A model generated the notes under the pieces. That model had not been told where the DNA came from. It did not search any database and was given only the letters and a program-made list of their open reading frames with translations. A stretch of DNA of 13,543 bases from a virus. Its lineage: Duplodnaviria > Heunggongvirae > Uroviricota > Caudoviricetes. Positions 282 to 13,543 of the stretch are shown in pieces; the stretch's first letter is position 1; the number at the start of each line of letters is the position of its first letter. The translations under genes and the position numbers were made by a program. Where the stretch lies: IMG/VR virus record IMGVR_UViG_2698536485_000014; one strand, given 5' to 3'.

Positions 282-590
282 CACCCTTATTATATAAATT
301 CTAATAATTAGCGTGGTAACGGTATTTTCAGACCTCTATCAATCCCATCAATACGTCACCCCCACCCTTTAGATGCATACATCCGACCTACTTTGTAGGC
401 TTGGCGTACTGCCAAGGTCGCAGCTATGCGACTCATATCTATCACCACTTTATAAAGCTTGATAGATATCTTTTGATCAATATCAATGTTTTCCGGGGAT
501 TTACCCGGCTATAGTTCGAATCAAGGAAGGGGAGCATTGATAGCACCCCAACCGAACAAACAAATCAACTTCTCGCAAAAGGTGATAGTT

Positions 591-713
591 ATGGGTATCA
601 AGAACAGTGCCAGCGCATGGCAAAAGGCCAGGTTTCATCACCCACACATTATTAAGGCAATTGAGGTGGTTGGAGTGTTAGCCCTGATGTTAGCTCTGTG
701 TGTGGAGGTGTGA
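591..713 (+). CDS. Small hydrophobic peptide (40 aa), possible membrane peptide
   Basis: ATG at 591 lies in frame inside the 486..713 track ORF and is preceded by an AAGGTGA Shine-Dalgarno. The C-terminal half is hydrophobic (AIEVVGVLALMLALCVEV). A 15-nt box TCAACTTCTCGCAAA sits 11 nt upstream of the ATG, as at the 1133 gene. Short ORF, may be non-coding. Confidence 0.3.
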   Translation: MGIKNSASAWQKARFHHPHIIKAIEVVGVLALMLALCVEV

Positions 714-1075: not shown

Positions 1076-1132
1076 TGTAAACGGTCCAACAGGTTATTAA
1101 CTAAACTCAACTTCTCGCAAAGGGGTACCACT

Positions 1133-1720
1133 ATGAACATTAAAACTATCATTGCAGTCATCACTATTGCCTTTAGTGCCAACACCGCAGCTATTGATGT
1201 AGGGGCCGTAAAAGATGCATCTTGTGCTGATAAACTGGCGGCACTTAATGCGGGATTCGATGCACCCCAGGGCTATCAAATGGGGCTATCTCTTAAAAAT
1301 ATTATTCTCCCTATGGAATCTGGCGCTTATGTATACGGAGCGATAGGAAAACTGGAGAAGCCGGAAATTGACCTGCAGGGTGTGAGAGCGAAGATCACAA
1401 AAAGAAATGAAAGCCTTTGTGATGTAGCTGAAATAGCTTTCATATCAGACGATGAAAAATCTATTTTAGCCTTTTGCAAAGATAGCGATGATAATGATCG
1501 CTTCTTTAAGATCACCCACAACAGGCCAATCTCTTTCTACTCTAATGCCACTATGGGCGCGGGTATGCAGTGGCTGAAGAGAGCTAAAGTAACTGAGATC
1601 GACATTGAAAAAGAGGCCAATGCAGGCAGTTATGGATTCTGGAAAGGCTGGACTAAATACACGTTCCAACAATGCGGCATCGATAGTCAGGCCTACGACA
1701 ACGGATTTTGGTTTTTCTAA
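1133..1720 (+). CDS. Secreted/periplasmic protein of unknown function (195 aa), moron-like
   Basis: N-terminus MNIKTIIAVITIAFSANTAA has a classic Sec signal peptide shape (basic residue, hydrophobic core, small-residue cleavage region). Four cysteines in the mature part; aromatic C-terminus (FWFF). GGGG Shine-Dalgarno at 1122-1125; terminator 22 nt downstream. Confidence 0.7.
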   Translation: MNIKTIIAVITIAFSANTAAIDVGAVKDASCADKLAALNAGFDAPQGYQMGLSLKNIILPMESGAYVYGAIGKLEKPEIDLQGVRAKITKRNESLCDVAEIAFISDDEKSILAFCKDSDDNDRFFKITHNRPISFYSNATMGAGMQWLKRAKVTEIDIEKEANAGSYGFWKGWTKYTFQQCGIDSQAYDNGFWFF

Positions 1721-1741
1721 CCTGCTAAGTTAATCCCACCA

Positions 1742-3218: not shown

Positions 3219-3235
3219 CACCTCTTGCACATACC

Positions 3236-3490
3236 CCGGAAGATTTTTCCGGTGTCTCCAACCTGTGAAGAATTTTCACACCTGTAAATCCATACAGCAC
3301 GGTAAAAACTACCGCACAACCTGTCAAAATATTTTACTACTCCCTTTAGTCATACCCCTTTCAGTCATACTCAGGCACCACACCCCGGTAAATATTACCG
3401 TACTCAGGCAGATATAAAGGGGCTAACCACGGCAAATATTTCCCTACTACCTCGGTAAATATTTCCGGTGTACCCCGGTAAAAATTACCG
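3236..3490. promoter_or_regulatory. Phased array of 15-bp palindromic sites (iteron/operator-like)
   Basis: CGGTAAAAACTACCG (3300-3314), CGGTAAATATTACCG (3386-3400), degenerate CGGCAAATATTTCCC (3430-3444), CGGTAAATATTTCCGG (3453-3468), CGGTAAAAATTACCG (3476-3490). Related palindromes CCGGAAGATTTTTCCGG (3236-3252) and GTGAAGAATTTTCAC (3265-3279). Centre-to-centre spacings are 86, 44, 23.5 and 22.5 bp, roughly multiples of two helical turns. Confidence 0.55.
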
Positions 3491-3519
3491 CCTAATAGAT
3501 AAAGTAATAGACCACACAA

Positions 3520-4060
3520 TAGATCCCCCCCTAACCCCCAAGGGGAATGGGGAGGGATCAGAGAGTGGGGAAGGTTTTCTAAGGGAAAAGCTTAACCCAC
3601 AAATGAAAGCCTAAAGAGCATGAGCGACTCTTTAGGCAATCTGTGTGTGGGGGGGGTGACAATGTATTCCATACATGACACGTCACCCAATTGTGTGTGG
3701 GAGTGCCTACGGCACCTTAGCCCATGGCTAAGCCCTTCGGGTCTGTGTGGGTCCGGCGAATGCGTCAGCATGAGGCCCACAATGTGGACCGCTGCCGAAA
3801 GCTTGCCAGCGCCGGAAGGAGGCAGCAAAGAGTCTCCCGCGCTCATGTGTGGGCGTATACGTAAGATATACACTCATAAATCGAAAATAAGCCCCCTAAA
3901 TGGCCTTCTGGCTGCATTAACCTGTGTGAGTAGTGAATTGCATTACCTGATGCTTAAATCGCGTTAGAATCGATTTTAGAGCGCTTAAGGCAAAAAGTGC
4001 CCTCCCTTGTGGGCTTGCTTGTGTCTGCTGTGCAGGCTATGGCACCTATAGCACACCTAA
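3520..4060. other. GC-rich, hairpin-dense non-coding segment; candidate structured RNA or protein-binding array
   Basis: No credible ORF. Perfect 10-bp stem GCCTAAAGAG/CTCTTTAGGC (3609-3637); nested hairpin 3654-3688; GTGCC-TAC-GGCAC (3703-3715); CTTAGCC-CAT-GGCTAAG; a C(TTCG)G tetraloop; GAAA loops. Boxes TGTGTGGG at 3643, 3692, 3744 and 3846, with degenerate copies at 3923 and 4007. Confidence 0.3.
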
Positions 4061-4076
4061 ATGATAATAATTCTCA

Positions 4077-4105
4077 TTGACAATTGGTTGACAATATGAT
4101 AAGAT
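4077..4105 (+). promoter_or_regulatory. Possible sigma70 promoter for the small membrane ORF
   Basis: TTGACA (4077-4082), 17-nt spacer, TAAGAT (4100-4105). A second TTGACA at 4088-4093 lacks a good -10. Confidence 0.3.
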
Positions 4106-4140
4106 TATAAATAGGGGGAGAAACAGATCCGGAGGTCAAT

Positions 4141-4290
4141 GTGGAAATTACAGATGCAATAGCGATCATCAACCTGGCTGTACTGTGGTGCGGTGTTGCC
4201 TACATAGCCGGAGTAACTGCAATCGACAATCTTGAAGAAAAAATGATAGATAAATACAAAAAGATTGTTGACAATTTGACGAATGTCTGA
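4141..4290 (+). CDS. Small membrane protein (49 aa, GTG start), hypothetical
   Basis: GGAGG Shine-Dalgarno at 4131-4135, 5 nt before GTG 4141. The product VEITDAIAIINLAVLWCGVAYIAGVTAIDNLEEKMIDKYKKIVDNLTNV contains one predicted transmembrane helix. Not in the ORF track because it is under 60 aa. Confidence 0.3.
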   Translation: MEITDAIAIINLAVLWCGVAYIAGVTAIDNLEEKMIDKYKKIVDNLTNV

Positions 4291-4296
4291 TAAAAT
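4268..4296 (+). promoter_or_regulatory. sigma70-type promoter upstream of the plus-strand gene module
   Basis: TTGACA (4268-4273), 17-nt spacer, TAAAAT (4291-4296). Predicted start near 4303, about 120 nt before ATG 4423. Confidence 0.5.
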
Positions 4297-4422
4297 ATAA
4301 AGCATAGGGTAATTCTCATCATAGTGAATTTCCTTTAGTAGACTGGCGGGGGCTTGTCTTAAGTTCCCGTTTCTTTTTAACCATATATCGCACAGGTTAG
4401 TGAGCTGACAGGAGATTGAATC

Positions 4423-4638
4423 ATGGCTAAAACCGGACCGATAAGCCAGCTAGTAAACTGGACTACTGACGAAATCGTCGAGAACGTGCTTAAAGGTAAC
4501 TTTCGAAAAACTTCCGTTTATGCATTTATTCGTAAACACAAAGGAGAATATCCACACATTGAAGCGGCAATTTTAGAACTGAACCGTCTCCGCATCGAGC
4601 GTGAGCTGGCTAAATACACCAACAACATTAATAAATAA
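4423..4638 (+). CDS. Small basic protein (71 aa), possible regulator
   Basis: AGGAG Shine-Dalgarno 8 nt before ATG 4423. First gene of a compact co-directional cluster. No recognisable family by eye. Confidence 0.55.
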   Translation: MAKTGPISQLVNWTTDEIVENVLKGNFRKTSVYAFIRKHKGEYPHIEAAILELNRLRIERELAKYTNNINK

Positions 4639-4651
4639 TTATGGGGGAACT

Positions 4652-5518
4652 ATGGCAAACAACTATGGGGAAAATTTTACTCCCCTTTTTAAACGTTTCA
4701 TCAAATACATTTTTAAAAATCCGATTGCAAAAACTACAACCAATAAAGAAAGATTTCACTTAAATTTGTTGGAAATGGCAATTTACGGTGAAATGGCAAG
4801 TTTCCATTTAAACGGTAAAGAAATATTTATCTCTGAGCAAACCTTAGCAGATGATTATGATGCCACAGAAAAAACAGTAAGGTCGGCTATCAAAACATTA
4901 GAGGCTGCAGGACTAATATTTGTAAAACGGAGCAGAGGTAAGTCTAATCATTACAAACTACTTATTACTCCTGATCAGCTTGGCAAGATGTGTGATGAGC
5001 AGGGTATTAAAACCTCCGCAAGTGTGGGATACAGCAAAGAGGCCTCCGATAATCAACAGGAAGCCCCAAAACAAGCCACACAGCAGCCTGAAAAGCCCGA
5101 GGCAATGCAATCCCCTTCCCAACCTAAAAAAGAACGCAGAGAACGCCGTAGAGACGCTGGCAAACGTGAAATAGATGAGCACGGTTATCCGATTCTGACA
5201 AGCGATGAAATGAATGCTAGATATAAAGTAATTCAGGCCGCATTTAAAGATCAGAAGAGAATTAAATTATCTGAATTGCGTGATACATTTTACGGGCCGG
5301 AGGTGATGGATAAAATTAAAGGCACTATTCCCGATAAAATCTGGAAAGAGAAAGATTATTGGCACCTGACAGAGCAGGCCCTTAAGGTGGCTCAACATGT
5401 GGTTAAAAGAGGCAAAACAATTACCCTTGATTCTATTAGTCATGGCTATGATGCACCGAAAGAAAGATTGTGGAACAACTGCAAGCTTGTAAATGGTGAA
5501 TTGACAATTACAAAATAA
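4652..5518 (+). CDS. Winged-helix DNA-binding protein (289 aa), possible replication initiator or organiser
   Basis: GGGGGA Shine-Dalgarno before ATG 4652; the track ORF 4601..5518 begins at an upstream GTG with no Shine-Dalgarno. N-terminal wHTH-like segment (ISEQTLADDYDATEKTVRSAIKTLEAAGLIFVKRSRGK), a low-complexity Q/P/E/K-rich linker, then a C-terminal domain. Architecture resembles iteron-binding initiators such as lambda O; this is an inference. Confidence 0.6.
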   Translation: MANNYGENFTPLFKRFIKYIFKNPIAKTTTNKERFHLNLLEMAIYGEMASFHLNGKEIFISEQTLADDYDATEKTVRSAIKTLEAAGLIFVKRSRGKSNHYKLLITPDQLGKMCDEQGIKTSASVGYSKEASDNQQEAPKQATQQPEKPEAMQSPSQPKKERRERRRDAGKREIDEHGYPILTSDEMNARYKVIQAAFKDQKRIKLSELRDTFYGPEVMDKIKGTIPDKIWKEKDYWHLTEQALKVAQHVVKRGKTITLDSISHGYDAPKERLWNNCKLVNGELTITK

Positions 5519-5557
5519 ATATTCTTATTTTTTACAGTATTCTAAAGGAAATTTAAA

Positions 5558-5704
5558 ATGTATGGCGATTTTGATTATTACCTGGAAAAGGAAAAATATT
5601 TTGAAGATGAACTATCACAACATTTTTCATATTGGGAAGAATATTGTGGTTGGTTAGCTGAAGATCCAGCAGATGAAGAAAATGATTCTGACATCCCTTA
5701 TTAA
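5558..5704 (+). CDS. Small acidic protein (48 aa), hypothetical
   Basis: AAGGAA Shine-Dalgarno before ATG 5558. Product MYGDFDYYLEKEKYFEDELSQHFSYWEEYCGWLAEDPADEENDSDIPY is strongly acidic and aromatic. Below the ORF-track size cut-off. Confidence 0.35.
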   Translation: MYGDFDYYLEKEKYFEDELSQHFSYWEEYCGWLAEDPADEENDSDIPY

Positions 5705-5808
5705 TTAATATCCCCTGTTATCCCCAAATAAACTAAATAAACTAATTACATATAGAACTAGAACTAGATTGATTTCTCTTTAATGTTAAATTGACTGGAG
5801 AATTAATC

Positions 5809-6294
5809 ATGTTCAAATCTGATCTTTCTGATTCCCAATTTGAAAAACTGGTAGCACTGCAGAAATATCTCCCCAGTGATGATCAACCAACACGACAGGC
5901 TAAGCACTTATTAGTCGAGGGCTTTACCCCTGAATTCGTGGCGGAATACACAGGCGTTAAACTTGAGAAAGTCCAAAAACTATATAATGAGTCCTGGAAT
6001 CCACGGTGTAGAGTTCCCCTCAGTGTCTACAACGAAATAGATAGAGATAGAAATGTCTTCGAAGATCGCCGCCGCAAATCTCTTTTAATGTGGAATTGCG
6101 GGATGAATATTGAAGAGATAGCAAAAGAATTAAAAGTAACCTGCTTTCATATCTGGGGCTTGTTGAGTGAAATCCTGCCACGTAAGGAGCTTAATCAACG
6201 TTTGCCTAAGCCCGGTAGTCGTGCTTATCGCGAATTTATATTCATCTACCGCCGCCATAGCAATAAAGTCCGGAAAGCAATGCAGCGCAAATAG
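5809..6294 (+). CDS. Hypothetical protein (161 aa) with two HTH-like segments
   Basis: GGAG Shine-Dalgarno before ATG 5809; the track start 5791 is a TTG. Segments FTPEFVAEYTGVKLEKVQKLY and GMNIEEIAKELKVTCFHIWGLL look like helix-turn-helix motifs. Basic C-terminus. Confidence 0.55.
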   Translation: MFKSDLSDSQFEKLVALQKYLPSDDQPTRQAKHLLVEGFTPEFVAEYTGVKLEKVQKLYNESWNPRCRVPLSVYNEIDRDRNVFEDRRRKSLLMWNCGMNIEEIAKELKVTCFHIWGLLSEILPRKELNQRLPKPGSRAYREFIFIYRRHSNKVRKAMQRK

Positions 6295-6336
6295 CTTATA
6301 GCCTTCACATATGCCGCAAGTTATTGATTCTGCCGT

Positions 6337-6352
6337 CCGGTAAATATGCCGG
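6337..6352. promoter_or_regulatory. Extra copy of the palindromic operator (CCGGTAAATATGCCGG)
   Basis: Same CGGTAAATAT core as the array at 3300-3490, placed 31 nt upstream of ATG 6383 in the gap between two genes. Confidence 0.4.
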
Positions 6353-6382
6353 ATGGCTCATATAAATTTTAAGGAATTCCAA

Positions 6383-6826
6383 ATGTCTCAAATCGCTAAA
6401 TTACTATCCCAGGTTATCAAAGCTTTCGACGCTGAAGATTCAAAAGTTCGCCAGGATCTTTTAGATGGCAAGTTTACCAACACCCTGGCATTTACCCGTG
6501 ACAAAGAGCACTTCTTAAAACACAGACACCACGCTTTTGCTGAATGCAAGTCCGCTAATGGTGATGTTTTCTATGTCGATTTGGTGGTTATGGCATGTAG
6601 GCTGTGGATGATTCAGGACCTTATGCGCCAACACGGTGATGATCCTCTTATCAGCATGTGGAACAGCGCCCAGGATGGCTTTGTGATTGCTGCCTTATCC
6701 AAATCAATGATTGAGGCAGAAGGGGCAAGCCTTCAGAACATGGCAGATCTCTTTGAAATAAGCGTAGGAATGATGCAGACCATGCTCCAAGCTGTCAAAC
6801 CTCTCAAACTGGTTAATCTTGATTAA
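6383..6826 (+). CDS. Hypothetical protein (147 aa), predicted mainly helical
   Basis: AAGGA Shine-Dalgarno 7 nt before ATG 6383; the track start 6353 lacks a Shine-Dalgarno and overlaps the operator. Composition is rich in A, L, M, Q, K and E, unlike a beta-rich tail tube protein. Confidence 0.55.
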   Translation: MSQIAKLLSQVIKAFDAEDSKVRQDLLDGKFTNTLAFTRDKEHFLKHRHHAFAECKSANGDVFYVDLVVMACRLWMIQDLMRQHGDDPLISMWNSAQDGFVIAALSKSMIEAEGASLQNMADLFEISVGMMQTMLQAVKPLKLVNLD

Positions 6827-6885
6827 GCTATTGATAAATAAGCACTCCCCATTTTTGGGGGGTGCATCAATGAGAGGATATGCCT

Positions 6886-7269
6886 ATGAATATTGAAGAA
6901 ATGATAGTTGAATTCGAAGAGGGTGATTTCCTGGAAGATGGGGAGTTTAGTTACTCCCATTTTAAACAGGCGTTATTTAGCAGCGATGATAAACCACACG
7001 TTAGTGATCTTAACGACGATGATTTATGTCGTTGGGTGTGCACCCGCTTATATGAGGATGGAAAATATACAGGCCAAAACTTTCCAAATCTCTATTTCAA
7101 AGCACAAACATTTGAGGAAGGGCAAAGAGTGAAAAACCTGGTCGATCAAATGCTGTCAGCCGGATATTTGCATAAAGAATTATTAAATCCTAAAGCTGAA
7201 AGCAAGCGCCATTATATTTTTGTGTGGACTATTGGCGATAAGTGTCCACTAAGACGCAAAGGCAAATGA
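6886..7269 (+). CDS. Hypothetical acidic protein (127 aa)
   Basis: GAGAGGA Shine-Dalgarno 7 nt before ATG 6886. Acidic N-terminus. Second gene upstream of the tape-measure gene. Confidence 0.5.
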   Translation: MNIEEMIVEFEEGDFLEDGEFSYSHFKQALFSSDDKPHVSDLNDDDLCRWVCTRLYEDGKYTGQNFPNLYFKAQTFEEGQRVKNLVDQMLSAGYLHKELLNPKAESKRHYIFVWTIGDKCPLRRKGK

Positions 7270-7270
7270 T

Positions 7271-7507
7271 ATGAACACCTACGAAAAGATTTATCAAAAA
7301 CTGGTTAAGGACTCCGAAGAGACGCCCGAAGGGGTGACAATAGGTCACCTACCAGAGGCAGCGAAAGAGGGGTCCACCATTATTAAAAGTGGCACCCACA
7401 CAGAAGGCCTCTCAATCGAAGAGCTGGCGGAGAAATATAATATTGATAAAGAGGCCCTGAAAAGGGCTATTTCATTATCAAAATCTTTAAGACAGGGTGA
7501 GGTATAA
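7271..7507 (+). CDS. Hypothetical protein (78 aa)
   Basis: ATG 7271 lies 1 nt after the upstream TGA. The gene ends 1 nt before the tape-measure start, so the three genes are tightly packed. Confidence 0.5.
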   Translation: MNTYEKIYQKLVKDSEETPEGVTIGHLPEAAKEGSTIIKSGTHTEGLSIEELAEKYNIDKEALKRAISLSKSLRQGEV

Positions 7508-7508
7508 A

Positions 7509-9608
7509 ATGGCAATGAAGGAAGTAGCCAAACTAACAAACGTTATTTACTGGGATTCTGATAAATCCTCCTGGCGAAAAGAAGTTAAACGGCTTGAGGA
7601 TTATAAAAAATCCTGGAAGAAAGCTACCGACGATATAGCTAAAGCGGATTTTAAATCGAATCAGGCTGTGCTCAGAACACAAAGAACACGCGCTAAGGTG
7701 GAAGAGCAGATCGCCAGAGCACAGAAGAAACAACGTGCTCAGGCTGTCAGCCGTCTGACCGGGGGCAATAATCCGGAGCTCTCCTCTATGCGCAAGTTCT
7801 ATCAGCAGCAAGCCAGAGAGGCCGCCAGACAACAAAAACTGTTAGATCGTAGTGTTGGAGATGTTCAGCACAGAAAAGCACGTGTAGGGGCCAACAGTGC
7901 ACGAATCAGCAGCATGTTTGATGGCTCCCTGGTTGCTCAGTTCCAAAGCAGGATCCAGAGAGTTAATGCTGATTATGCTAAAGGGGCTATCAACCTGCAG
8001 GCCTATAATCAGAAAATGGCTCGGCTCAGGGCTGAAATGAAGATGGCAACAGCAGAGGCCGGAAAATTTCAGAGCAGACTGGATAAACTGGCATCAGGTG
8101 CCAGCAAGGTGCATGACAACCTGGGCAAAATCAACTCCACACTAGGCAAGATAGCCATTGGCCTTACTGCCGCTGGCTGGGGTGTTCAGCGTGCTGTTAG
8201 TGGTGCTATGGGTAGCCTTGCAGATCGCAACAGTGCCTACTTCGGTTTGATGGCACAGAACAAGGATGATAAAGCCAAGACTGATCAGCAGATGGCTTTT
8301 ATCAAGAACACAGCCTACACCTATGGGATGGATGAGCGGGAGATGCAAGGGGGCTACATGCGCTTTGCTGCAGCTACTCCCACCATGAAGGAATCTGATA
8401 AGCAGGCTCTTTTTGAGGCTATGGCTATTAAAGGTCGCTCAGTGGGTGCTACTGGCGAGCAACAGAACAGGGCGCTTGTTGCGGTCCAACAAATGGCTTC
8501 AAAGGGAAAAGTTATGGCGGAAGAGCTGCGGGGCCAACTGTCAGAAGCCTTTGCAGGCTCACAACAGGATTTTCAACAGGCCGCTATTGATGCCGGAATC
8601 ATCAAGAATACCCAGGAATTCGATAAAGCCCTTAAAGATGGCAAAATCACCCTGGATAAGCTACTCCCTTCTTTGGTGAAAATCTGGTCTGCAGCCAAGA
8701 ATACGAAAGCCTTTGCTGAATCCATGAAACAGCCAGAAGTAGCAATGCAGCGCATGAAAAACAGCTTTAACGAGCTGGCGATTCAGTTTATGGGTGTTGT
8801 GGATCCTGCGGATGGCGTTATTAGCTTATCTGAATCTCTGATCTCCATCTTTGAAGACCTCACCACTGATATGGACGGCAGCGGGAGCGCGGCAAAACAG
8901 TTCGGTGAGGCAGTCGGGGCTGCCATGCGTGAGATCATGTATTGGGTAGGCTTCGCTAAGGGATATATTGAGGTCAAGGCTAAAGAGTTCGGCATGACCG
9001 GATCAGAGGTTGGCGAGCTTATCGGAAAATTGGTAGTCGGCTTAGCTGGTCTGAAAGTTATTACTACACTGCTTTCCCCTCTAACCGGATTTGTTTCACT
9101 TGTCACCCAACTGATAGCTTTGTTAGGTAAAATCCCTGGTATGAGCAAGCTTCTGGCTTCTGCCTCAGGTGGAACGGCAACAGGAGCAGCGGTCATCAGT
9201 GCAGGCTCTAACGCTGAAAGAAGTTTCATTGATGGCAAGACGCAGGAAATGAGTAAGGAGAACTCAAAACAGGGTGCTTTGTTTGAGCTGGGAAGATTTG
9301 TTAGCAATGCTGGCGCACTGTTCACACCTGGCGGTGATACTGGTCCTTTGTTCGATCAGGTCAGAGGCTGGTTTAATAAAGGGCCAACATTGACAGTAGA
9401 CACTGGCATCAGACCTACACCAACAGGCGGCATAGCTATCCAGAATGGTGGATATCAACCAGTCCAAGTAAATGTAGCCCCACAAGGTGAGATTTCCGGC
9501 AAATGGGAGATAACCATTGATGAGGGTGGAATTGCCAGGGTGATCCAGAAGGAAGTCAGCGATCAGTTGGATTGGAAAGCCACACAGGAATCTAACCAGC
9601 TTTTCTAA
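7509..9608 (+). CDS. Tail tape-measure-domain protein (699 aa)
   Basis: GGTGAGG Shine-Dalgarno 6 nt before ATG 7509; the track start 7497 is a GTG. Coiled-coil, Q/R/K-rich N-terminus. Central segment ...QQMASKGKVMAEELRGQLSEAFAGS...KALKDGKITLDKLLPSL... matches my recollection of the conserved tape-measure domain motif. Hydrophobic segments (LIGKLVVGLAGLKVITTLLSPLTGFVSLVTQLIALLG) and a Gly-rich C-terminus are also typical. Confidence 0.6.
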   Translation: MAMKEVAKLTNVIYWDSDKSSWRKEVKRLEDYKKSWKKATDDIAKADFKSNQAVLRTQRTRAKVEEQIARAQKKQRAQAVSRLTGGNNPELSSMRKFYQQQAREAARQQKLLDRSVGDVQHRKARVGANSARISSMFDGSLVAQFQSRIQRVNADYAKGAINLQAYNQKMARLRAEMKMATAEAGKFQSRLDKLASGASKVHDNLGKINSTLGKIAIGLTAAGWGVQRAVSGAMGSLADRNSAYFGLMAQNKDDKAKTDQQMAFIKNTAYTYGMDEREMQGGYMRFAAATPTMKESDKQALFEAMAIKGRSVGATGEQQNRALVAVQQMASKGKVMAEELRGQLSEAFAGSQQDFQQAAIDAGIIKNTQEFDKALKDGKITLDKLLPSLVKIWSAAKNTKAFAESMKQPEVAMQRMKNSFNELAIQFMGVVDPADGVISLSESLISIFEDLTTDMDGSGSAAKQFGEAVGAAMREIMYWVGFAKGYIEVKAKEFGMTGSEVGELIGKLVVGLAGLKVITTLLSPLTGFVSLVTQLIALLGKIPGMSKLLASASGGTATGAAVISAGSNAERSFIDGKTQEMSKENSKQGALFELGRFVSNAGALFTPGGDTGPLFDQVRGWFNKGPTLTVDTGIRPTPTGGIAIQNGGYQPVQVNVAPQGEISGKWEITIDEGGIARVIQKEVSDQLDWKATQESNQLF

Positions 9609-9619
9609 TATTGTGATCT

Positions 9620-9635
9620 AAATCAATAAGTTAGC
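9620..9635. repeat. 16-bp exact direct repeat, right copy (AAATCAATAAGTTAGC)
   Basis: Identical to 1966-1981; lies 12 nt after the tape-measure stop codon. Confidence 0.45.
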
Positions 9636-9655
9636 CTGACCGGATAAACTCCAGG

Positions 9656-9690
9656 CAAGAAAAAAGCCCCTAAGTGTTAACAAAGGGGCT
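9656..9690 (-). terminator. Rho-independent terminator on the minus strand
   Basis: Stem AGCCCCT (9665-9671) pairs with AGGGGCT (9684-9690) around a 12-nt loop. On the minus strand the stem is followed by TTTTTCTTG. On the plus strand no T-run follows. Confidence 0.45.
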
Positions 9691-9719
9691 CTTCTCCGGT
9701 ATCCTTTTGATGCGGGGCG

Positions 9720-9767
9720 AACCTGCTAACAAAAATCAACCTCTCGCGAGACTAATGTTAGCAGGTT
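9720..9767. repeat. 12-bp perfect inverted repeat with 24-nt loop
   Basis: AACCTGCTAACA (9720-9731) pairs with TGTTAGCAGGTT (9756-9767). The loop contains the palindrome TCTCGCGAGA and a degenerate copy of the leader box (TCAACCTCTCGCGAG). Confidence 0.5.
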
Positions 9768-10108
9768 GCCGGAAGGTAAGTCAACTCCGGCCTATAAACC
9801 TTAAAGCGACTATAAAATCGCCCCGCCAATTGTGATGATCCGACCTTTGAGGCGGGTCCGGTGCCCAGGGGGTGCAGTGATGCACAAACCAGGCAACGAT
9901 AAACAGGCTAACAGTGATAGCGGCGCTCAATCAGCGCACTAAATCCTAACCAGTCCGGGAAAGAGGCTGGCTCTATCGACCGCTCATGCACGGGACAATG
10001 CATACCTGATAAAGGATTCTCACAAGGGACCAATCGCGAGAAAAGAAGTGGAAAGGGGCTGATTTGTGGTGTATCACTACGGCCTCAAAAGAACACTATT
10101 ACCTTTTT

Positions 10109-10567
10109 TCAGCCTCTCCCAACATTTGACCAGTATTTGATTGCACCGATCAAATCATCATAGTGGCGCATTGCATCATTGAAGCCTTTATAGCTTGCCC
10201 ATTGTGGGGAGACTTTGTTATTGCTGAATTGCCCACTAATCAGGATAGTCTCCAAAATGTCGGCGTATCGCTTGCCAATTCGCTTTCTGACGGCCTCAGA
10301 GCTTCCACCCTTTACGATTGCATTAATCAGGGCTTTTGTGTGTCTCAGGCTCTCATAGAGCATTGCAGCGTGGGCAGATTCCATAAAGGAGCGCTTAGGC
10401 AGATCACCCCACCCCTCAGAGTGGATAGCTGCCAGTGTGGCGTAATTCAGGCCGCTATAGTGCTTTCCGTCATCCCAGCCAACCGCTACACCTTCCATCT
10501 GTGAGAGCTCTTTATGCAGCTTATCCATCATGCGCTTGTCTATGGTGCAACGGACTTTCGGACTCAT
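10109..10567 (-). CDS. Hypothetical protein (152 aa), possibly virion morphogenesis-associated
   Basis: GGAG Shine-Dalgarno 8 nt before the minus-strand ATG at 10567. The start overlaps the upstream gene stop as ATGA (10564-10567). Function assigned by position only. Confidence 0.55.
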   Translation of the reverse strand: MSPKVRCTIDKRMMDKLHKELSQMEGVAVGWDDGKHYSGLNYATLAAIHSEGWGDLPKRSFMESAHAAMLYESLRHTKALINAIVKGGSSEAVRKRIGKRYADILETILISGQFSNNKVSPQWASYKGFNDAMRHYDDLIGAIKYWSNVGRG

Positions 10568-11367
10568 TTGTTGATCTCCGTGATGTCATCGAGCAACATG
10601 TTGGCCTTATCAATCATCGTTTCGTGGAACTCATTCGACACAACAGACTTATCACCTGCGGCAATCTTTCCCGCTGCCTCTCCCTGTGCATATTCCCCGC
10701 GATGCTTAGCCCTGGTTGATTTCGTAGCAGCATTGCCAGCGTTACTACCCTCTTTAGCACTGTTAACAGCACCCTTTTGCTGTGTTTTATTCACCTTCTT
10801 ACTGTTAGTGAAAACTCCGGCATTTTCGACCATCTTCACCTTGAAGGTGCGGAATTCTTCAAAAGTGCAATCAATAGTGATGCAGTCACCGGAGGAAGAG
10901 CTACGCTTAACTTCACATTTCGTCATGATGAAGTTCTCAAGAAGTCCGGCATCTTCACTCACCAGGCTAACCAGCTGGCGCTTGTCTCTCATTTCCATAA
11001 GAGCACGCACAGCGGCGGCGGGGCGCATGGATTCAAGGGGATTATCTGGATCAGTGTTCCGGTCGATGTAGTTCTCTTTCCGGATAATGTGAGGGGAAGA
11101 GGTAATAATGCCCGTAAAGCTGACAGATTTATCTTTAATGACGGCATGGTCTGACATGGTGGTGCCATCCTCGACCGCATAGCTCGATTTCTCAACAGGG
11201 AACGAATAGCTGACATCAGAGATAGAGTCAAAGAAGATAGCCACATTATCGGTATAGTTGAAGCCATCCATCATATTTTTGTTTTGTGAATATCCCCCAC
11301 ACATAACAGTGAATGCAGGAGATCTCGACTCAGCTTGTTTTGCAGCTGTCAGAGCATCACTAGCCAT
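10564..11367 (-). CDS. Hypothetical protein (about 268 aa), Ser/Thr/Val-rich with low-complexity C-terminus
   Basis: Preferred start is ATG at 11367, with GGAGG 10 nt upstream. The alternatives are ATG 11376 (too close to the Shine-Dalgarno) and the track TTG at 11421. The composition suggests a beta-rich structural protein; this is an inference. Confidence 0.55.
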   Translation of the reverse strand: MASDALTAAKQAESRSPAFTVMCGGYSQNKNMMDGFNYTDNVAIFFDSISDVSYSFPVEKSSYAVEDGTTMSDHAVIKDKSVSFTGIITSSPHIIRKENYIDRNTDPDNPLESMRPAAAVRALMEMRDKRQLVSLVSEDAGLLENFIMTKCEVKRSSSSGDCITIDCTFEEFRTFKVKMVENAGVFTNSKKVNKTQQKGAVNSAKEGSNAGNAATKSTRAKHRGEYAQGEAAGKIAAGDKSVVSNEFHETMIDKANMLLDDITEINK

Positions 11368-11561
11368 AGTAAACATGCCTCCAAATTGGTCCACTTCATG
11401 GATTTGGCTAAACTCGTGCAAATAGCCCTCGTCTTGAGGGTGTTAAAGCCAAACCTGCAAAAGATGCAGGCAAAATAGAACTTATCGTTGCCCTGCTTAA
11501 AATCTGCAGAAAATACAGGGCAGTTATTCGTTAGAATCGCTTATAGCTCTTCCCGAGAGCG

Positions 11562-11813
11562 TTATTTTGCAAAACGATTATGGGCATTCAGGGCTTTTTT
11601 GCGGTCCTGGGCTTGTTTGCGTGCAATAAAATGTTCGAAAGTCTCGGCCCAGGTGCATTTATTATATTCACGGTATTTATGCATAGCCTGGCGGCTAACG
11701 TCATAGCAGGCGGCAAATGTGGAGATACGCAGGAATTCCGGCAGATCCTCGTCATCGATATGGATAATATCAAAAGGCACGTCGTCACGGTCGCCGTATA
11801 AAACAATTTTCAT
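11562..11813 (-). CDS. Small acidic protein (83 aa) with possible HTH
   Basis: GAGGTG Shine-Dalgarno 8 nt before ATG 11813; the track start 11822 is a GTG. Contains the segment CYDVSRQAMHKYREY. Sits just downstream of the capsid terminator. Confidence 0.45.
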   Translation of the reverse strand: MKIVLYGDRDDVPFDIIHIDDEDLPEFLRISTFAACYDVSRQAMHKYREYNKCTWAETFEHFIARKQAQDRKKALNAHNRFAK

Positions 11814-11845
11814 AAAAGACACCTCAAAAAACTTAAGACGGGGAT

Positions 11846-11910
11846 AATAAAAAAGGGAAGAGGGAAAGACCTATCCCCGATCTCTCACCTCTTCCCTTTG
11901 CTTTTATTTG
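11846..11910 (-). terminator. Terminator/attenuator after the major capsid gene, possibly bidirectional
   Basis: Stem AAAGGGAAGAGG (11852-11863) pairs with CCTCTTCCCTTT (11888-11899) around a 24-nt loop. The minus-strand transcript is followed by TTTATTAT; the plus strand is followed by GCTTTTATTT. Confidence 0.5.
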
Positions 11911-11927
11911 GCCTTCGAAGAAGGACC

Positions 11928-12971
11928 TTATTTAGCCTTGGCTTTTGCCAGAGCGGCGGCGGAGTTACTAACACTCACTTTAATCACAACTTCAGGCATC
12001 ATGTTCATGAAAGCATAAGAGGATTCAATGAAGATTTCTCGTTTACCTCTGGACTCTTCCATATACATGAAAGCTTCACGTGCAGCGCCGTTTGCAAGCT
12101 TCAGGTTGCGAGCGCAAGGGCCGAAAAATTGAGTATAAACGCCCACCATATCGCCTAACGCATGCGGCTGGAACTGTGGGACCAGATAAGCAGTATTCTC
12201 TGGCAGACTATCCATTTGCACCACACGCAGAGCTAAGCCCGGAATGCGGAAGGTCGGGAAGCCCGGCAGAATATCCTCAGGGAACATCAGACCTTTGTCG
12301 GTAATATTCTGATTGCCGAACAACAGCACTTTTCTCAACAGTTCATCAGTCTGAATTGCAGCAAAGAGTTCAGCACGGCAGAACAGGGTGAAACCACGCA
12401 GAGCGCGAACAACACCACGCTGTTTAACCTTGCTCAGTGCAACCAGGTCCTGCAGCTGTTTAAGGATATCTTTAGCTAAATCCACTTCGGAAGTAGTTTG
12501 TTGTGCGCCCAGCAGTTCGCACACATTCAGTTCTTTACCCTTGGTGAGGATAATTTTGTTCTCAAAGAGAGCAAGCTGGCGTGCTTCTTCGTGGGTCTGG
12601 CGTAAGCCTTCGCCAAGCTGAATGACACGACGAGCGGTTACAGACTCTAAATTCTCTTCGGAATCTTTGCCCGGAACACGGATACCCTGCCAGTCAGAAG
12701 GATAAATAGCACTTGATGCGGCAGTGAATGCCATATCACCCGTGCCCGTTTCACGCTCATCTGCGGTAATGGTCGCCATCTGTTCACCGTAGCGCGGATA
12801 CTGACCGAAAGCGGTTTGTTTCACCTGGCGAACTTTGTCATATTCAAATTTAAAGGTATTGCACAGAGCAGTAGTGTTGAAGATATCCATTGCTGAAATA
12901 ATCTGGTTATCCAGCGGGATGTCTTTAATCAGACCACACAGATCGCGAACTTCGAATTCTTTCTTAGCCAT
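11928..12971 (-). CDS. Major capsid protein, lambda gpE-like family (about 347 aa)
   Basis: AAGGAGG Shine-Dalgarno 6 nt before ATG 12971; the track start 12977 is a TTG. Size matches gpE-type capsid proteins. N-terminal FKFEYD and C-terminal PEVVIKVSV segments resemble lambda E as I recall it. It follows a decoration-size gene by 11 nt and is followed by a strong terminator. Confidence 0.6.
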   Translation of the reverse strand: MAKKEFEVRDLCGLIKDIPLDNQIISAMDIFNTTALCNTFKFEYDKVRQVKQTAFGQYPRYGEQMATITADERETGTGDMAFTAASSAIYPSDWQGIRVPGKDSEENLESVTARRVIQLGEGLRQTHEEARQLALFENKIILTKGKELNVCELLGAQQTTSEVDLAKDILKQLQDLVALSKVKQRGVVRALRGFTLFCRAELFAAIQTDELLRKVLLFGNQNITDKGLMFPEDILPGFPTFRIPGLALRVVQMDSLPENTAYLVPQFQPHALGDMVGVYTQFFGPCARNLKLANGAAREAFMYMEESRGKREIFIESSYAFMNMMPEVVIKVSVSNSAAALAKAKAK

Positions 12972-12982
12972 CTTCAACCTCC

Positions 12983-13318
12983 TTATTGTGCAACACGCAA
13001 ATCGCCATTGCTGGCAGCGATAACAGCGGCTAAGCCGTCTTTATCCACGTAGGCCGGATTGATATAACAGCCTTTGTTGGCAACAACGATAAAAGCGTCA
13101 CCAACCTCAGCACGTTCTACAACCAGCAGCGGAGTTTTACCGGTGTGTGTTTCTTTAACGAAGGTCTCAACCTCGCCAGCCTCAGTCACCACAACAACAG
13201 TGCCAGCCGGAATCTCAGCTTTAACTTTGTTTTTAATTTCAACGTCGCGAATACTAAATTGCTCATCTGCGGCGTATGAAATGATGTGTCCGCGTGTGCG
13301 GATAGTCATATCTTTCAT
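12983..13318 (-). CDS. Head decoration-like protein (111 aa)
   Basis: AGGTGA Shine-Dalgarno before ATG 13318. Small Val/Ala/Glu-rich product directly upstream of the capsid gene, in the gpD-gpE arrangement. Its stop codon overlaps the capsid Shine-Dalgarno. Call is by position and size only. Confidence 0.45.
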   Translation of the reverse strand: MKDMTIRTRGHIISYAADEQFSIRDVEIKNKVKAEIPAGTVVVVTEAGEVETFVKETHTGKTPLLVVERAEVGDAFIVVANKGCYINPAYVDKDGLAAVIAASNGDLRVAQ

Positions 13319-13356
13319 TTGATCACCTGCGATTTAAATTAACTCCCCTCAAAGAG

Positions 13357-13473
13357 TTCCGGCATAACCTCTAAAACCACGACAGGATCGGGCCGAAAAG
13401 TTATGCCGGAAATCTAAAGGGAAATTGATACAAGGAGAGGGAGATAGCCCCGCACCGTCCAAGCGGGGGCTAT
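13357..13473. repeat. Two strong hairpins in the leader upstream of the decoration gene
   Basis: 12-bp perfect inverted repeat TTCCGGCATAAC (13357-13368) / GTTATGCCGGAA (13400-13411) with a 31-nt loop. Second hairpin ATAGCCCCGC (13444-13453) / GCGGGGGCTAT (13463-13473) with one bulged base. Confidence 0.4.
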
Positions 13474-13543
13474 TCCACATGGGGAAACCGACAACAGTCG
13501 GATGATAGTTCACAGTATTACGGTTACTAGAGAGCACTATCAC

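What the first reader, a model, noticed from the sequence alone, without database searches (positions are those of the whole stretch)
9609..10108. Structured 500-bp intergenic region where the tape-measure and capsid-side operons converge
Contains the right 16-bp repeat, a minus-strand terminator (9656-9690), a 12-bp perfect inverted repeat with a palindromic loop (9720-9767), and further hairpins including one with a GTGA loop (GTGCAGTGATGCAC). The 152-aa gene ends at 10109 but its terminator lies about 420 nt away, leaving room for a long 3' UTR, a small RNA, or an att/packaging site.
Basis: seen in the sequence. Interest (0 to 1): 0.45.

Follow-up and report, generated by a model that had tools for sequence, protein, structure and literature searches.

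The report
Structured regulatory RNA gene on satellite-like plasmid
The 500-bp "empty" gap between the tail and capsid operons of this small E. coli plasmid encodes a previously uncatalogued, highly folded ~430-nt RNA, one conserved loop of which is complementary to the ribosome-binding regions of two other plasmid genes, so it probably acts as an RNA regulator.

Summary
The region is not coding and is not a loose set of hairpins. It is one conserved structured RNA gene on the minus strand, from about 10108 to 9657, ending at the intrinsic terminator.

Evidence for the RNA:
- It is almost invariant among about 11 related 13.5-kb E. coli plasmids, while the flanking genes differ by 3-8%.
- A second element lineage has the same gene order and a homologous RNA (~69% identity), although its neighbouring protein is only 50% identical.
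- Between the lineages the stems change by compensation: 24 of 85 curated pairs changed on both sides, against 1-3 in slid controls, with 93% standard pairs.
- The minus strand folds better (z -5.6) than the plus strand (z -2.7).
- There is no match in Rfam 15, no tRNA, no conserved ORF, and no homolog in the phage collections.

Proposed mechanism (inferred): the invariant apical-loop motif GCGAGAGGUU(GAUUU) is complementary (15 and 12 bp) to sites just 5' of the Shine-Dalgarno sequences of two genes in the divergent operon. A conserved promoter-like site would place this seed at the 5' end of a ~92-nt short form. I read it as a trans-acting antisense regulator. A third, rearranged lineage lacks the seed, so this part is unproven.

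Context: the plasmid looks like an undescribed satellite of rV5/phiTE-like myophages.

The parts
9657..10108 (-). Whole structured non-coding RNA: leader, two folded domains and terminator. The conserved core is about 9657-10086.
   Evidence: nhmmer match 10105-9612; conservation; homolog in a second lineage; covariation; fold z -5.6.
10055..10086 (-). P1 hairpin (GAGGC...GCCCC), which begins with the invariant GAGGCCGU.
   Evidence: Alignment. The inner stem compensates (GUGGU/ACCAC in L023, GUGAU/AUCAC in L057). Lineage C has GAUGC/GCAUC.
10035..10043 (-). 5' linker UUUCUCGCG, which can pair with the P14 loop CGCGAGAGG. This is either a pseudoknot or a mimic of the mRNA target.
   Evidence: Helix 12: 99% paired but essentially invariant (one one-sided U-to-C change), so there is no covariation evidence for or against it.
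10014..10023 (-). P3 5' strand. Pairs with 9832-9841 and closes the 5' domain.
   Evidence: helix 1: the four innermost pairs all changed on both sides between the lineages (CC-U-A/..GG in A, GUAG/CAUC in B).
9842..10013 (-). 5' domain.
   Evidence: Coordinates. Covariation: P7 has 3 pairs changed on both sides, including one within lineage A; P6 has 1; P8 has 1. P8 and P9 are absent or resized in L013, L025 and L027.
9832..9841 (-). P3 3' strand.
   Evidence: helix 1.
9712..9826 (-). 3' domain, closed by P11 (9819-9826 with 9712-9719). It contains two UUUAUAG motifs, the P13 hairpin 9768-9791 (loop UUGACUUA) and the P14 hairpin 9720-9767.
   Evidence: P11 has 5 pairs changed on both sides, including a GC - GU - AU series within lineage A; P13 has 4; P14 has 3. 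RNAalifold on a plain MAFFT alignment recovered P14 independently.
9733..9747 (-). Seed in the P14 apical loop: GCGAGAGGUUGAUUU. The first 10 nt are invariant in lineages A and B.
   Evidence: Complementary to 562-576 (15 bp, 1 G-U) and 1107-1118 (12 bp). These are the best or near-best duplexes in the plasmid.
9755..9784 (-). Promoter-like site inside the RNA gene: -35 TTGACT (9784-9779), 18-nt spacer, TG-extended -10 TAACAT (9760-9755). The seed begins 7 nt downstream, which would give a ~92-nt short RNA.
   Evidence: Scan hit. A homologous hit, TTGACT-16-TAGTAT with TG, occurs in lineage B. The 7-nt spacing from the -10 to GCGAGAGG is the same in both (sequences). This is a consensus match only. 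It is weaker in sublineage B3.
9657..9690 (-). Intrinsic terminator of the RNA and of the capsid-neck operon.
   Evidence: One compensatory pair (U-A to C-G) between the lineages (helix 11).
9620..9635 (+). Right copy of the 16-bp repeat. It matches the IHF consensus (AATCAATAAGTTA) and lies between the TMP stop codon and the terminator, outside the RNA core.
   Evidence: Conserved in lineage A. The left copy at 1966-1981 is not conserved in the other plasmids.
561..593 (+). Candidate target 1: CAAATCAACTTCTCGCAAAAGG, then 8 nt, then the ATG at 591. The gene encodes a 40-aa hydrophobic peptide (591-713).
   Evidence: No Pfam or PHROG match for the peptide.
1103..1135 (+). Candidate target 2: AAACTCAACTTCTCGCAAAGGGG, followed by the ATG at 1133. 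The gene encodes a 195-aa protein (1133-1720) whose hydrophobic N-terminus looks like a signal peptide by eye.
   Evidence: In L001 and L021 the same motif precedes a different cargo gene.

Best explanation
The gap encodes a structured non-coding RNA of about 430-450 nt, read from the minus strand.

Shown:
- It follows the 152-aa neck gene with no strong terminator in between in this lineage. It ends at the intrinsic terminator at 9690-9657.
- It folds into two domains closed by long-range helices P3 and P11, with invariant junctions and loops.
- Peripheral hairpins are variable and can be gained or lost.

Inferred:
- It is made as the 3' extension of the capsid-neck operon.
- A nested ~92-nt form may start at a conserved internal sigma-70-like promoter. 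Its first bases would then be the seed.
- The seed GCGAGAGGUU(GAUUU) sits in the P14 apical loop of the long form and at the 5' end of the short form.
- The seed base-pairs with the motif AAC(C/U)UCUCGC, which lies just upstream of the Shine-Dalgarno sequence of two genes in the divergently transcribed operon. One encodes a 40-aa hydrophobic peptide and the other a variable cargo protein. Pairing would control their translation.
- The direction is not known. Blocking the ribosome site is the default reading. Opening a small SD-sequestering hairpin is also possible.
- The 5' linker UUUCUCGCG resembles the target and may mask the seed in the long form.
- The role of the large 5' domain is unknown.
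For: Conservation: there are 5 differences in about 500 nt against CP020521. The 152-aa and Dit genes show about 2-8 differences per 100 nt and the TMP gene about 8%.

Homology: a homologous element sits in the same gene order in a second lineage whose neighbouring protein is only 50% identical.

Covariation: 93.1% standard pairs, and 24 of 85 pairs changed on both sides against 1-3 when partners are slid. The covariation score is 0.255 against 0.025-0.073, and no shuffle reached it for percent paired, compensated cells or covariation score (1 of 500 for compensated pairs). RNAalifold recovers P14 and the terminator without curation.

Strand: fold z is -5.6 on the minus strand and -2.7 on the plus strand. 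There are 81 G-U cells against 40 A-C cells. The U-tract is on the minus strand only.

Not coding: there is no long ORF. Open frames are not shared across lineages. Natural 1-nt indels occur within lineage A.

Not a known RNA: no Rfam match for either lineage and no tRNA or tmRNA. RefSeq annotation shows nothing under the match.

Seed and targets:
- Contiguous pairing of 15 bp and 12 bp to sites ending about 15-18 nt before the two start codons.
- These are the top-ranked duplexes in the window, L001, L024 and L027.
- The same UTR motif stands upstream of one or two genes in lineage B.
- The flanking pairing partly tracks the loop: UUGAUUU/AAAUCAA in lineage A, and GGUUAU/AUAAC(U) at L027 site 2 and in L025.

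Promoter-like site: it is found at the homologous place in lineages A and B, with the same 7-nt distance to the seed.
Against: - No transcript data are available, so the 5' end, any processing and the short form are all inferred.
- The 10-nt seed core and its targets are invariant, so the pairing cannot be tested by covariation. At two lineage-B sites (L024, L027 site 1) only the 10-bp core pairs.
- Duplex energies (z about -4 to -4.6) barely exceed the best background windows. The L025 site is not among the top six.
- Lineage C (L056, L062) keeps the UTR motif, but its rearranged RNA lacks the seed. The motif must therefore have, or have had, a role independent of this loop.
- Most covariation reflects a single A/B split. 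I curated the helix alignment from the same sequences used to derive the helices, which favours pairing.
- The large 5' domain has no role in this model.
Confidence: 0.5

Rival explanations
1. It is a functional structured RNA, but its main job is not antisense control of the two plasmid genes. It could be a protein-binding scaffold or decoy, a sensor, a ribozyme, or an RNA that acts on the helper phage or on host defence. On this reading the loop-to-UTR complementarity is secondary or coincidental.
For: A large two-domain fold has many invariant unpaired blocks (ACCCGCCUCAAAGGUC, CUCUUUCCCGGA, UUAUCAGGUAUGCA, UUUAUAG twice) that the antisense model does not use. Lineage C keeps the leader, P1, the P4 strands, the UUGACUUA motif and the terminator, but has no seed. 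The duplex energies are only marginally better than background.
Against: No candidate partner was found. The conserved blocks have no good complement elsewhere in the plasmid. The Vequintavirinae phage A7_1 has no homolog and no exact or complementary copy of the conserved blocks tested. No Rfam ribozyme or riboswitch model matches. The position of the complementary sites at two translation start regions in two lineages is hard to put down to chance.
Confidence: 0.3
2. It is a passive or cis-acting 3' UTR. On this reading the structure only stabilises the capsid-neck operon mRNA against 3' exonucleases, or insulates the two convergent operons from each other.
For: It lies directly downstream of the last gene of the operon, and in lineage A there is no strong terminator in between. 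It ends in a strong hairpin shared by the convergent operons (both-strand terminator-like hits in lineage B).
Against: A stabiliser needs only the terminal hairpin. Here 430 nt are held nearly invariant, with long-range covarying helices and invariant loops. Some lineage-B variants have terminator-like hairpins between the gene and the RNA, which suggests the RNA is a separate unit.
Confidence: 0.1
3. It is a DNA-level site: a cos/pac packaging signal, a recombination or att site, or a secondary origin. On this reading the hairpins are cruciform or protein-binding elements, and the AACCTCTCGC copies are three operators for one DNA-binding protein.
For: An IHF-consensus 16-mer lies next to the region, and the window has 6 IHF consensus matches against about 0.4 expected for equal base frequencies. 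The three AAC(C/T)TCTCGC copies are all on the same DNA strand. A satellite must carry a packaging signal somewhere. The plasmid encodes small HTH proteins.
Against: Pairing is better on one strand. Compensation preserves stems that span up to 180 nt, which is typical of RNA and not of protein sites. The region has no terminase or integrase gene beside it. It has no similarity to a related phage genome or to the phage databases. The exact 16-bp repeat pair is not conserved.
Confidence: 0.07
4. It encodes one or more small proteins.
For: Gene callers placed a 75-aa ORF over part of the homologous region in L013 and a 49-aa ORF on the opposite strand in lineage C. One stop-free frame of 63 codons on the plus strand is shared with L023 and L027.
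Against: That frame has no start codon for most of its length; the ORF from the first start codon is 36 aa. It is broken in L013. A natural 1-nt indel shifts it in CP074841 and CP043822. The substitutions are compensatory in stems and do not follow a codon pattern.
Confidence: 0.02

Closest known systems
Immunity antisense RNAs of phage P1/P7 (c4 RNA) and satellite P4 (CI RNA); Rfam C4, accession recalled as RF01695
   Same: Each is an RNA encoded by a phage or satellite. Each uses exposed loop sequences to pair with two complementary sites on mRNAs of the same element, at or near a ribosome-binding site, and so controls a neighbouring operon (established knowledge of c4/icd-ant and of P4 seqA/seqB/seqC). 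Here one loop is complementary to two sites next to Shine-Dalgarno sequences.
   Different: c4 and CI are RNAs of about 70-80 nt, cut from a leader transcript by RNase P, and their targets lie on the same transcript. This RNA is about 430 nt with two folded domains. It lies at the 3' end of an operon, and its targets lie on the divergent operon about 4 kb away. No Rfam family, C4 included, was listed at E <= 10.
3'-UTR-derived, 5'-seed sRNAs of enterobacteria (such as CpxQ, DapZ, MicL, SroC) and 5'-seed sRNAs such as RybB
   Same: The RNA lies at the 3' end of an operon and shares that operon's intrinsic terminator with a U-tail. It may have an internal promoter that puts a conserved seed at the 5' end. 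The seed pairs near the start of translation.
   Different: Those sRNAs are 50-150 nt and have no large covarying upstream structure. Here the 330 nt upstream are themselves under structural selection. Hfq dependence and processing could not be tested.
Type I toxin-antitoxin RNA antitoxins that act in trans on 5' UTRs (IstR-1/tisB, OhsC/shoB, OrzO/zorO)
   Same: One candidate target encodes a 40-aa peptide with a hydrophobic C-terminal half. The RNA has 15 nt of complementarity to its 5' UTR.
   Different: The known antitoxins are short and are encoded next to the toxin. This one lies about 4 kb away inside a large RNA. It also matches the leader of an unrelated cargo gene. Toxicity of the peptide is unknown, and it has no family match.
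Large ornate non-coding RNAs linked to phages and mobile elements (ROOL, GOLLD, HEARO/omega RNAs, OLE)
   Same: It is several hundred nucleotides long, multi-domain and covarying, is carried on a phage-related mobile element, and has no known biochemical function.
   Different: It has no sequence or structure match to any of them in Rfam 15. Its host range is different (E. coli plasmids), it is smaller than GOLLD and ROOL, and no IscB or TnpB gene lies beside it.

Membership tests
Any Rfam 15 family, including C4/CI antisense RNA, plasmid ctRNAs, retron msr, group I/II introns, ROOL, GOLLD, tmRNA and RNase P | Score at or above the family's gathering threshold against its covariance model | tested here: not met
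   No match at gathering level in the whole window. At E <= 10 the only matches lie 26-66 bits below gathering score, and the best-scoring ones cover the terminator hairpin (ctRNA_p42d 23.6 against 50; msr 17.7 against 52). The result is the same for the lineage-B copy. No tRNA or tmRNA.
Structured non-coding RNA (generic) | Conservation above the neighbouring sequence, together with compensatory base changes that keep the helices | tested here: met
   conservation; covariation: 24 of 85 pairs changed on both sides against 1-3 in slid controls. Caveats: the helix alignment was curated by hand, and there are essentially two lineages.
Structured non-coding RNA (generic) | No conserved reading frame | tested here: met
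   and the 1-nt indels seen.
Trans-acting base-pairing sRNA (3'-UTR-derived or 5'-seed type) | Intrinsic terminator with a U-tail at the 3' end | tested here: met
   Stem at 9690-9665 followed by UUUUUUCUU.
Trans-acting base-pairing sRNA (3'-UTR-derived or 5'-seed type) | Conserved single-stranded seed complementary to the translation start regions of its targets | tested here: met
   for lineages A and B. Not met in the rearranged lineage C.
Trans-acting base-pairing sRNA (3'-UTR-derived or 5'-seed type) | Covariation between seed and target | tested here: inconclusive
   The 10-nt core is invariant on both sides. The flanking pairing tracks the loop at some sites (lineage A; L027 site 2; L025) and not at others (L024; L027 site 1).
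Trans-acting base-pairing sRNA (3'-UTR-derived or 5'-seed type) | Own promoter or RNase E processing site; Hfq or ProQ binding; measurable effect on the target | not testable with these tools
   Only promoter-like consensus matches at homologous positions are available. There are no expression data.
Type I toxin-antitoxin system | Small hydrophobic toxic peptide whose mRNA is bound by an RNA antitoxin | tested here: inconclusive
   A 40-aa peptide with a hydrophobic C-terminus, with 15-nt complementarity in its leader. It has no family match. Toxicity cannot be tested here.
Phage or satellite cos/pac packaging site | Next to terminase genes, or similar in sequence to the helper phage's packaging site | tested here: not met
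   The plasmid has no terminase gene. There is no similarity to the phage collection, nor to the genome of phage A7_1. The true helper phage is unknown, so this test is incomplete.
ColE1-type primer RNA (RNA II) or replication-control RNA | The RNA runs into the origin and primes replication; a countertranscript is present; there is no Rep/iteron system | tested here: not met
   The RNA ends at an intrinsic terminator. The plasmid has iterons (3233-3490) and an HTH Rep-like gene (4601-5518) elsewhere. Priming itself cannot be tested.

The most novel reading that the evidence does not exclude
The RNA could be a new class of large two-domain riboregulator, belonging to an undescribed plasmid-borne satellite of virulent rV5/phiTE-like myophages. 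On this reading the conserved 5' domain senses a helper-phage or host signal. The internal target mimic UUUCUCGCG then releases the P14 seed, which switches the satellite from quiet plasmid maintenance to its hijacking or lysis programme. That would be an RNA-based counterpart of the protein derepression switches of PICIs and of the P4 CI RNA circuit.
Probability: 0.12. Interest if true: 0.85.

Novelty: new variant of a known kind. Interest (0 to 1): 0.6.

Why it matters
E. coli is the most intensively annotated bacterium. Even so, this RNA of about 430 nt, with more than twenty compensated base pairs, is absent from Rfam 15. It is also unannotated on every RefSeq copy of the plasmid.

It sits on a small plasmid family that carries capsid, neck, baseplate and tape-measure genes related to large virulent myophages, but has no terminase or portal gene. 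That suggests a satellite type I could not find described in the literature library.

If the seed-target pairing is real, it would give a compact and directly testable RNA circuit. The circuit would link late structural transcription to the control of a small membrane peptide and of swappable cargo genes. It would also be a second example, after P4 and P1, of RNA-based control in a phage parasite.

If the pairing is not real, a large conserved fold of unknown function remains to be explained.

Tried and rejected
Searches that found nothing:
- Rfam at gathering level and at E <= 10, for two lineages. Only terminator-like chance matches appeared.
- tRNA and tmRNA scan.
- BLAST against the phage collection with both lineages. 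The only hit was a chance terminator match.
- IMG/VR scans by protein and by three DNA patterns. The seven 16-mer hits (L014-L020) were chance matches by nhmmer.
- GTDB genome scans with two patterns. The 22 hits come from unrelated taxa and equal the number expected by chance. I did not confirm them individually.
- The metagenome scan returned only two near-identical plasmids.
- Whole-genome scan of Vequintavirinae phage A7_1 for the RNA, the UTR motif, and exact or complementary copies of four conserved blocks.
- The 20.7-kb plasmid CP057043 has a distant neck-gene homolog and a 1.4-kb gap, but no nhmmer hit.

Helices I considered and dropped:
- The 12-bp leader/tail helix of the window's MFE fold (GUGUUCUUUUGA with UCAAAAGGAUAC). 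It has no counterpart in lineage B.
- The local hairpin UUCUCGCGA/UUGUGAGAA. It is not conserved.
- GACC/GGUC around CCUCAAAGG. A G-to-A change there is not compensated.

Other points:
- The exact 16-bp repeat pair is not a conserved feature, because the left copy is missing from the other plasmids.
- Single-sequence MFE folds disagree with each other outside P5, P7, the P1 inner stem and the terminator. The model therefore rests on sequence comparison.
- A full RNAduplex scan of the whole RNA timed out. I replaced it with a contiguous-pairing scan and a loop-only scan.
- No covariance model was built. The RNA exceeds the 400-column limit, and no further sequence was held to search with it.
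Full report
**1. What the window is**

The 13,543-bp window matches complete circular E. coli plasmids of 13.2-13.7 kb end to end. PLSDB types them as non-mobilizable. Examples are NZ_CP020521.1, CP134895.1 and NZ_CP035869.1. They occur in 7 of 5,426 complete E. coli genomes and always on plasmids.

- Plus strand: an HTH Rep-like gene downstream of iterons, several small ORFs, and a 703-aa tape-measure protein (7497-9608).
- Minus strand: a 111-aa ORF, a 349-aa major capsid protein, a Dit-like protein, and the 152-aa ORF that ends at 10109.
- The 152-aa protein is 45-49% identical to a neck or "tail completion" protein of rV5-, phiTE- and CR3-like myophages. In those phages the homolog sits between the adaptor and head-closure genes.
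- The TMP, Dit and capsid proteins also have weak relatives in those phages.
- The plasmid has no terminase or portal gene.

It therefore looks like a plasmid-borne satellite of such phages. My literature searches found no description of it.

**2. Check of the observation**

These are the 16-bp repeat, the minus-strand terminator, the 12-bp inverted repeat with a palindromic loop, the GTGA-loop hairpin, and the gap of about 420 nt between the gene end and the terminator.

The structure exceeds chance. The minus-strand RNA folds at -172 kcal/mol against -139 +/- 5.8 for dinucleotide shuffles (z -5.6). The plus strand gives only z -2.7.

**3. Conservation**

Among eight, and later eleven, plasmids of this family the gap is almost invariant.

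- Against CP020521 there are 5 differences in about 500 nt.
- The adjacent 152-aa and Dit genes show about 2-8 differences per 100 nt, and the TMP gene about 8%.
- Elsewhere the plasmids are mosaic, at 84-95% identity.
- RefSeq annotates nothing in the gap.

**4. A divergent homolog**

The 152-aa protein has few close relatives. One cluster at 50% identity belongs to a second family of E. coli elements of 14-15 kb, which I call lineage B.

Lineage B has the same gene order: capsid, 78 aa, Dit, 150 aa, a gap of about 550 nt, then a convergent TMP gene. Its gap is homologous to the window's at about 69% identity over 330-360 nt.

The similarity is concentrated in blocks:
- GAGGCCGU
- UUAUCAGGUAUGCA...CCGUGCAUGAGCGG
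- CUCUUUCCCGGA...GUUAGGAU
- GCCUGUUUAUC
- ACCCGCCUCAAAGGUC
- AAUUGGC
- UUUAUAGUCG
- UUGACUUA
- CGCGAGAGGUU
- GAUACC

Between these blocks the sequence differs but stays self-complementary. Whole hairpins are inserted, resized or missing at fixed points. This is the signature of a structured RNA.

**5. Structure and covariation**

Single-sequence MFE folds disagree outside a few hairpins, so I derived the helices by comparing sequences. In window coordinates on the minus strand:

| Element | Coordinates | Note |
|---|---|---|
| P1 hairpin | 10055-10086 | begins with invariant GAGGCCGU |
| Pyrimidine-rich linker | includes 10035-10043 | holds UUUCUCGCG |
| P3 | 10014-10023 with 9832-9841 | closes the 5' domain |
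| P4, P5, P6, P7 | within 9898-10010 | P7 has an invariant loop |
| P8, P9 | 9923-9937, 9860-9897 | variable hairpins |
| Invariant block | 9842-9857 | ACCCGCCUCAAAGGUC |
| P11 | 9819-9826 with 9712-9719 | closes the 3' domain |
| P13 | 9768-9791 | loop UUGACUUA |
| P14 | 9720-9767 | carries the seed loop |
| Terminator | 9657-9690 | |

I extracted the helix strands from 11 distinct sequences into a gap-free helix-only alignment, joined by artificial spacers. I then counted pairs on it.

- 93.1% of 925 cells form standard pairs.
- 24 of 85 pairs changed on both sides, against 1-3 when the partners are slid by 1-3 columns.
- The covariation score is 0.255, against 0.025-0.073 in the slid controls.
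- No shuffle reached the observed values for percent paired, compensated cells or covariation score. One of 500 reached the count of compensated pairs.
- Pairs changed on both sides, by helix: P3 6 (the 4 innermost in every lineage-B sequence), P6 1, P7 3, P8 1, P11 5, P13 4, P14 3, terminator 1.
- Two changes occur within lineage A. P7 goes from C-G to A-U in CP134895. P11 shows the series G-C, G-U, A-U.
- A hairpin found only in lineage B, after UUUAUAGUCGUU, has five different sequences, and all of them pair.

RNAalifold on plain MAFFT alignments recovered P14 and the terminator without curation. It gave 11 compensated pairs on a three-sequence alignment of the whole RNA and 8 on a nine-sequence alignment of the 3' domain.

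Caveats: I curated the helix alignment from the same sequences used to derive the helices. Most changes also trace to a single A/B split.

**6. Strand, and the coding and DNA-site alternatives**

Several points favour the minus strand:
- the U-tract of the terminator;
- the fold z-scores;
- 81 G-U cells against 40 A-C cells (93.1% against 88.6% paired);
- co-orientation with the upstream operon.

Coding can be excluded. There is no ORF above 53 aa. No open frame is shared across all lineages. Natural 1-nt indels occur within lineage A.

A DNA packaging or att site has no support. No terminase or integrase gene lies next to the region. Nothing similar exists in the phage collection or in a complete Vequintavirinae genome. 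The exact 16-bp repeat pair is found only in this plasmid.

The 16-mer does match the IHF consensus, and the right copy is conserved. A protein site just outside the RNA therefore remains possible.

**7. Mechanism (inferred)**

The repeat finder grouped a stretch of the P14 loop with two plus-strand sites at 562-582 and 1104-1124. On the RNA strand, the loop GCGAGAGGUUGAUUU is complementary to:
- AAAUCAACUUCUCGC at 562-576 (15 contiguous pairs, one G-U);
- UCAACUUCUCGC at 1107-1118 (12 pairs).

The first of these is the longest low-wobble match between the RNA and the rest of the plasmid.

Both sites end just before a Shine-Dalgarno sequence and a start codon:
- ...CTCGCAAAAGGtgatagttATG at 591, for a 40-aa peptide with a hydrophobic C-terminus;
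- ...CTCGCAAAGGGGtaccactATG at 1133, for a 195-aa protein whose hydrophobic N-terminus looks like a signal peptide by eye.

Neither protein has a family match. These genes open the operon that diverges from the capsid-neck operon. In CP020521 and L021 the second site precedes a different cargo gene.

Lineage B elements carry the same motif, AAC(C/U)UCUCGCA followed by an SD and an AUG. It stands upstream of a small hydrophobic peptide gene and/or a cargo gene. Loop-only duplex scans rank these sites first or near first in the window, L001, L024 and L027, but not in L025. The z-scores are about -4 to -4.6.

The 10-nt core is invariant on both sides, so covariation cannot test it. The flanking pairing follows the loop at some sites (UUGAUUU/AAAUCAA in lineage A; GGUUAU/AUAAC(U) at L027 site 2 and in L025). 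It does not at others.

A sigma-70-like site lies inside the RNA gene: TTGACT, 16-18 nt, then a TG-extended -10. It falls at homologous positions in lineages A and B, and in both the -10 lies 7 nt before GCGAGAGG. A transcript from this site would be about 92 nt. It would have the seed at its 5' end and the terminator at its 3' end, which is the layout of many enterobacterial sRNAs.

The 5' linker UUUCUCGCG resembles the mRNA motif and can pair with the same loop over 9-10 bp. It is essentially invariant (helix 12). It may form a pseudoknot or mask the seed in the long form.

My model is as follows. The long RNA is made with the late structural operon, and possibly a short form is made from its own promoter. 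Either form would pair with the two leaders and set their translation.

**8. What weakens the model**

A third lineage, C (L056, L062), has a rearranged RNA. It keeps the leader, P1 (with a compensatory GAUGC/GCAUC), the P4 strands, a UUGACUUA motif and the terminator. It lacks the CGCGAGAGGUU loop, yet it still has the UTR motif.

The motif therefore has some role that does not depend on this loop, or lineage C has lost the circuit. The 5' domain also has no assigned function. I put the existence of a functional structured RNA at about 0.85-0.9, and the antisense mechanism at about 0.4-0.45.

**9. Comparison with known systems**

In logic, the closest systems are the P1/P7 c4 and P4 CI immunity RNAs, where one RNA has two complementary sites at or near a ribosome-binding site on the same element. 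The closest in layout are the 3'-UTR-derived, 5'-seed sRNAs. For the hydrophobic-peptide target, the closest are trans-acting type I antitoxins.

It is not a member of any Rfam family. It differs from all three comparisons by its size, its two covarying domains, and its position about 4 kb from its targets. I rate it a new variant of a known kind, meaning a mobile-element riboregulator, carried by what appears to be an undescribed satellite plasmid.

**10. Verdict**

- Interest is 0.6.
- The decisive tests are transcript mapping, seed and compensatory mutations on leader fusions, structure probing, and a covariance-model search of large assemblies followed by R-scape.

Noticed in passing
window 1-13543 (whole): The window is a complete ~13.5-kb non-mobilizable E. 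coli plasmid. It carries capsid (Phage_cap_E), Dit-like, neck and tape-measure genes related to rV5/phiTE-like virulent myophages, but no terminase or portal gene. It is likely a plasmid-borne phage satellite, and I found no description of it in the literature library. It occurs in 7 of 5,426 complete E. coli genomes.
   Followed up: partly
window 3233-3490 and 4601-5518: Six copies of a 19-nt iteron (ACCCCGGTAAATATTACCG) lie about 1.1 kb upstream of a 305-aa HTH protein. This is probably the replication module. The stretch 1720-4600 has almost no long ORFs.
   Followed up: no
window 9620-9635 and 1966-1981: The exact 16-bp repeat contains a perfect IHF consensus (AATCAATAAGTTA). The window has 6 IHF-consensus matches against about 0.4 expected for equal base frequencies. 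The left copy is not an exact 16-mer in four other plasmids of the family.
   Followed up: partly
between window 9608 and 9612 (alignment A2, columns 1-70): Four related plasmids (CP074841, CP178698, CP035869, CP134895) carry an insertion of about 51 nt just after the TMP stop codon. It holds three small hairpins and follows a sequence identical to the window's TMP 3' end. This spot is prone to indels.
   Followed up: no
window 561-593 and 1103-1135; L024 ~1371; L025 ~11090; L027 ~2239 and ~1090; L062 ~3511 and ~2726: A portable 5'-leader motif, AAC(C/U)UCUCGCA followed by an SD and an AUG, precedes a small hydrophobic peptide gene and swappable cargo genes in all three lineages. One lineage-C copy (L062 ~3511) has no start codon nearby. 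The motif could also form a small hairpin that sequesters the SD.
   Followed up: partly
L056 1957-2653 / L062 7516-8212: Lineage C has a rearranged version of the RNA. It keeps the leader, P1, the P4 strands, a UUGACUUA module that has moved into the 5' domain, and the terminator. It lacks the seed loop, and it has a 49-aa ORF called on the opposite strand just upstream.
   Followed up: partly
L025 1535-1660; L057 1990-2050: Some lineage-B variants carry a partial duplication of the GAGGCCGU leader, with a terminator-like hairpin (AAAAGAC...GUCUUUU) directly upstream of the RNA. This suggests the RNA can be a transcription unit of its own.
   Followed up: no
L009 (CP057043.1) 6493-7878: A 20.7-kb E. 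coli plasmid has more distant homologs of the neck protein (33%) and the Dit protein (41%). Downstream of the neck gene lies a 1.4-kb stretch with no annotated gene and no nhmmer match to this RNA. It may hold an analogous element.
   Followed up: partly
NZ_CP043822.1 (39.6 kb) and CP057073.1 (137.6 kb): CP043822 holds three copies of the element, so it is a trimer or an assembly artefact. CP057073 is deposited as an E. coli plasmid, but its size and its 45%-identical neck-protein homolog suggest an rV5-like phage genome. If so, it is a possible helper phage in a carrier state.
   Followed up: no
L023 12139-13260: A lineage-B element carries a 373-aa cargo protein with DUF723, treble-clef zinc finger, T5orf172/MUG113 and CapR-homology domains. 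It may be a nuclease or a defence-type cargo.
   Followed up: no
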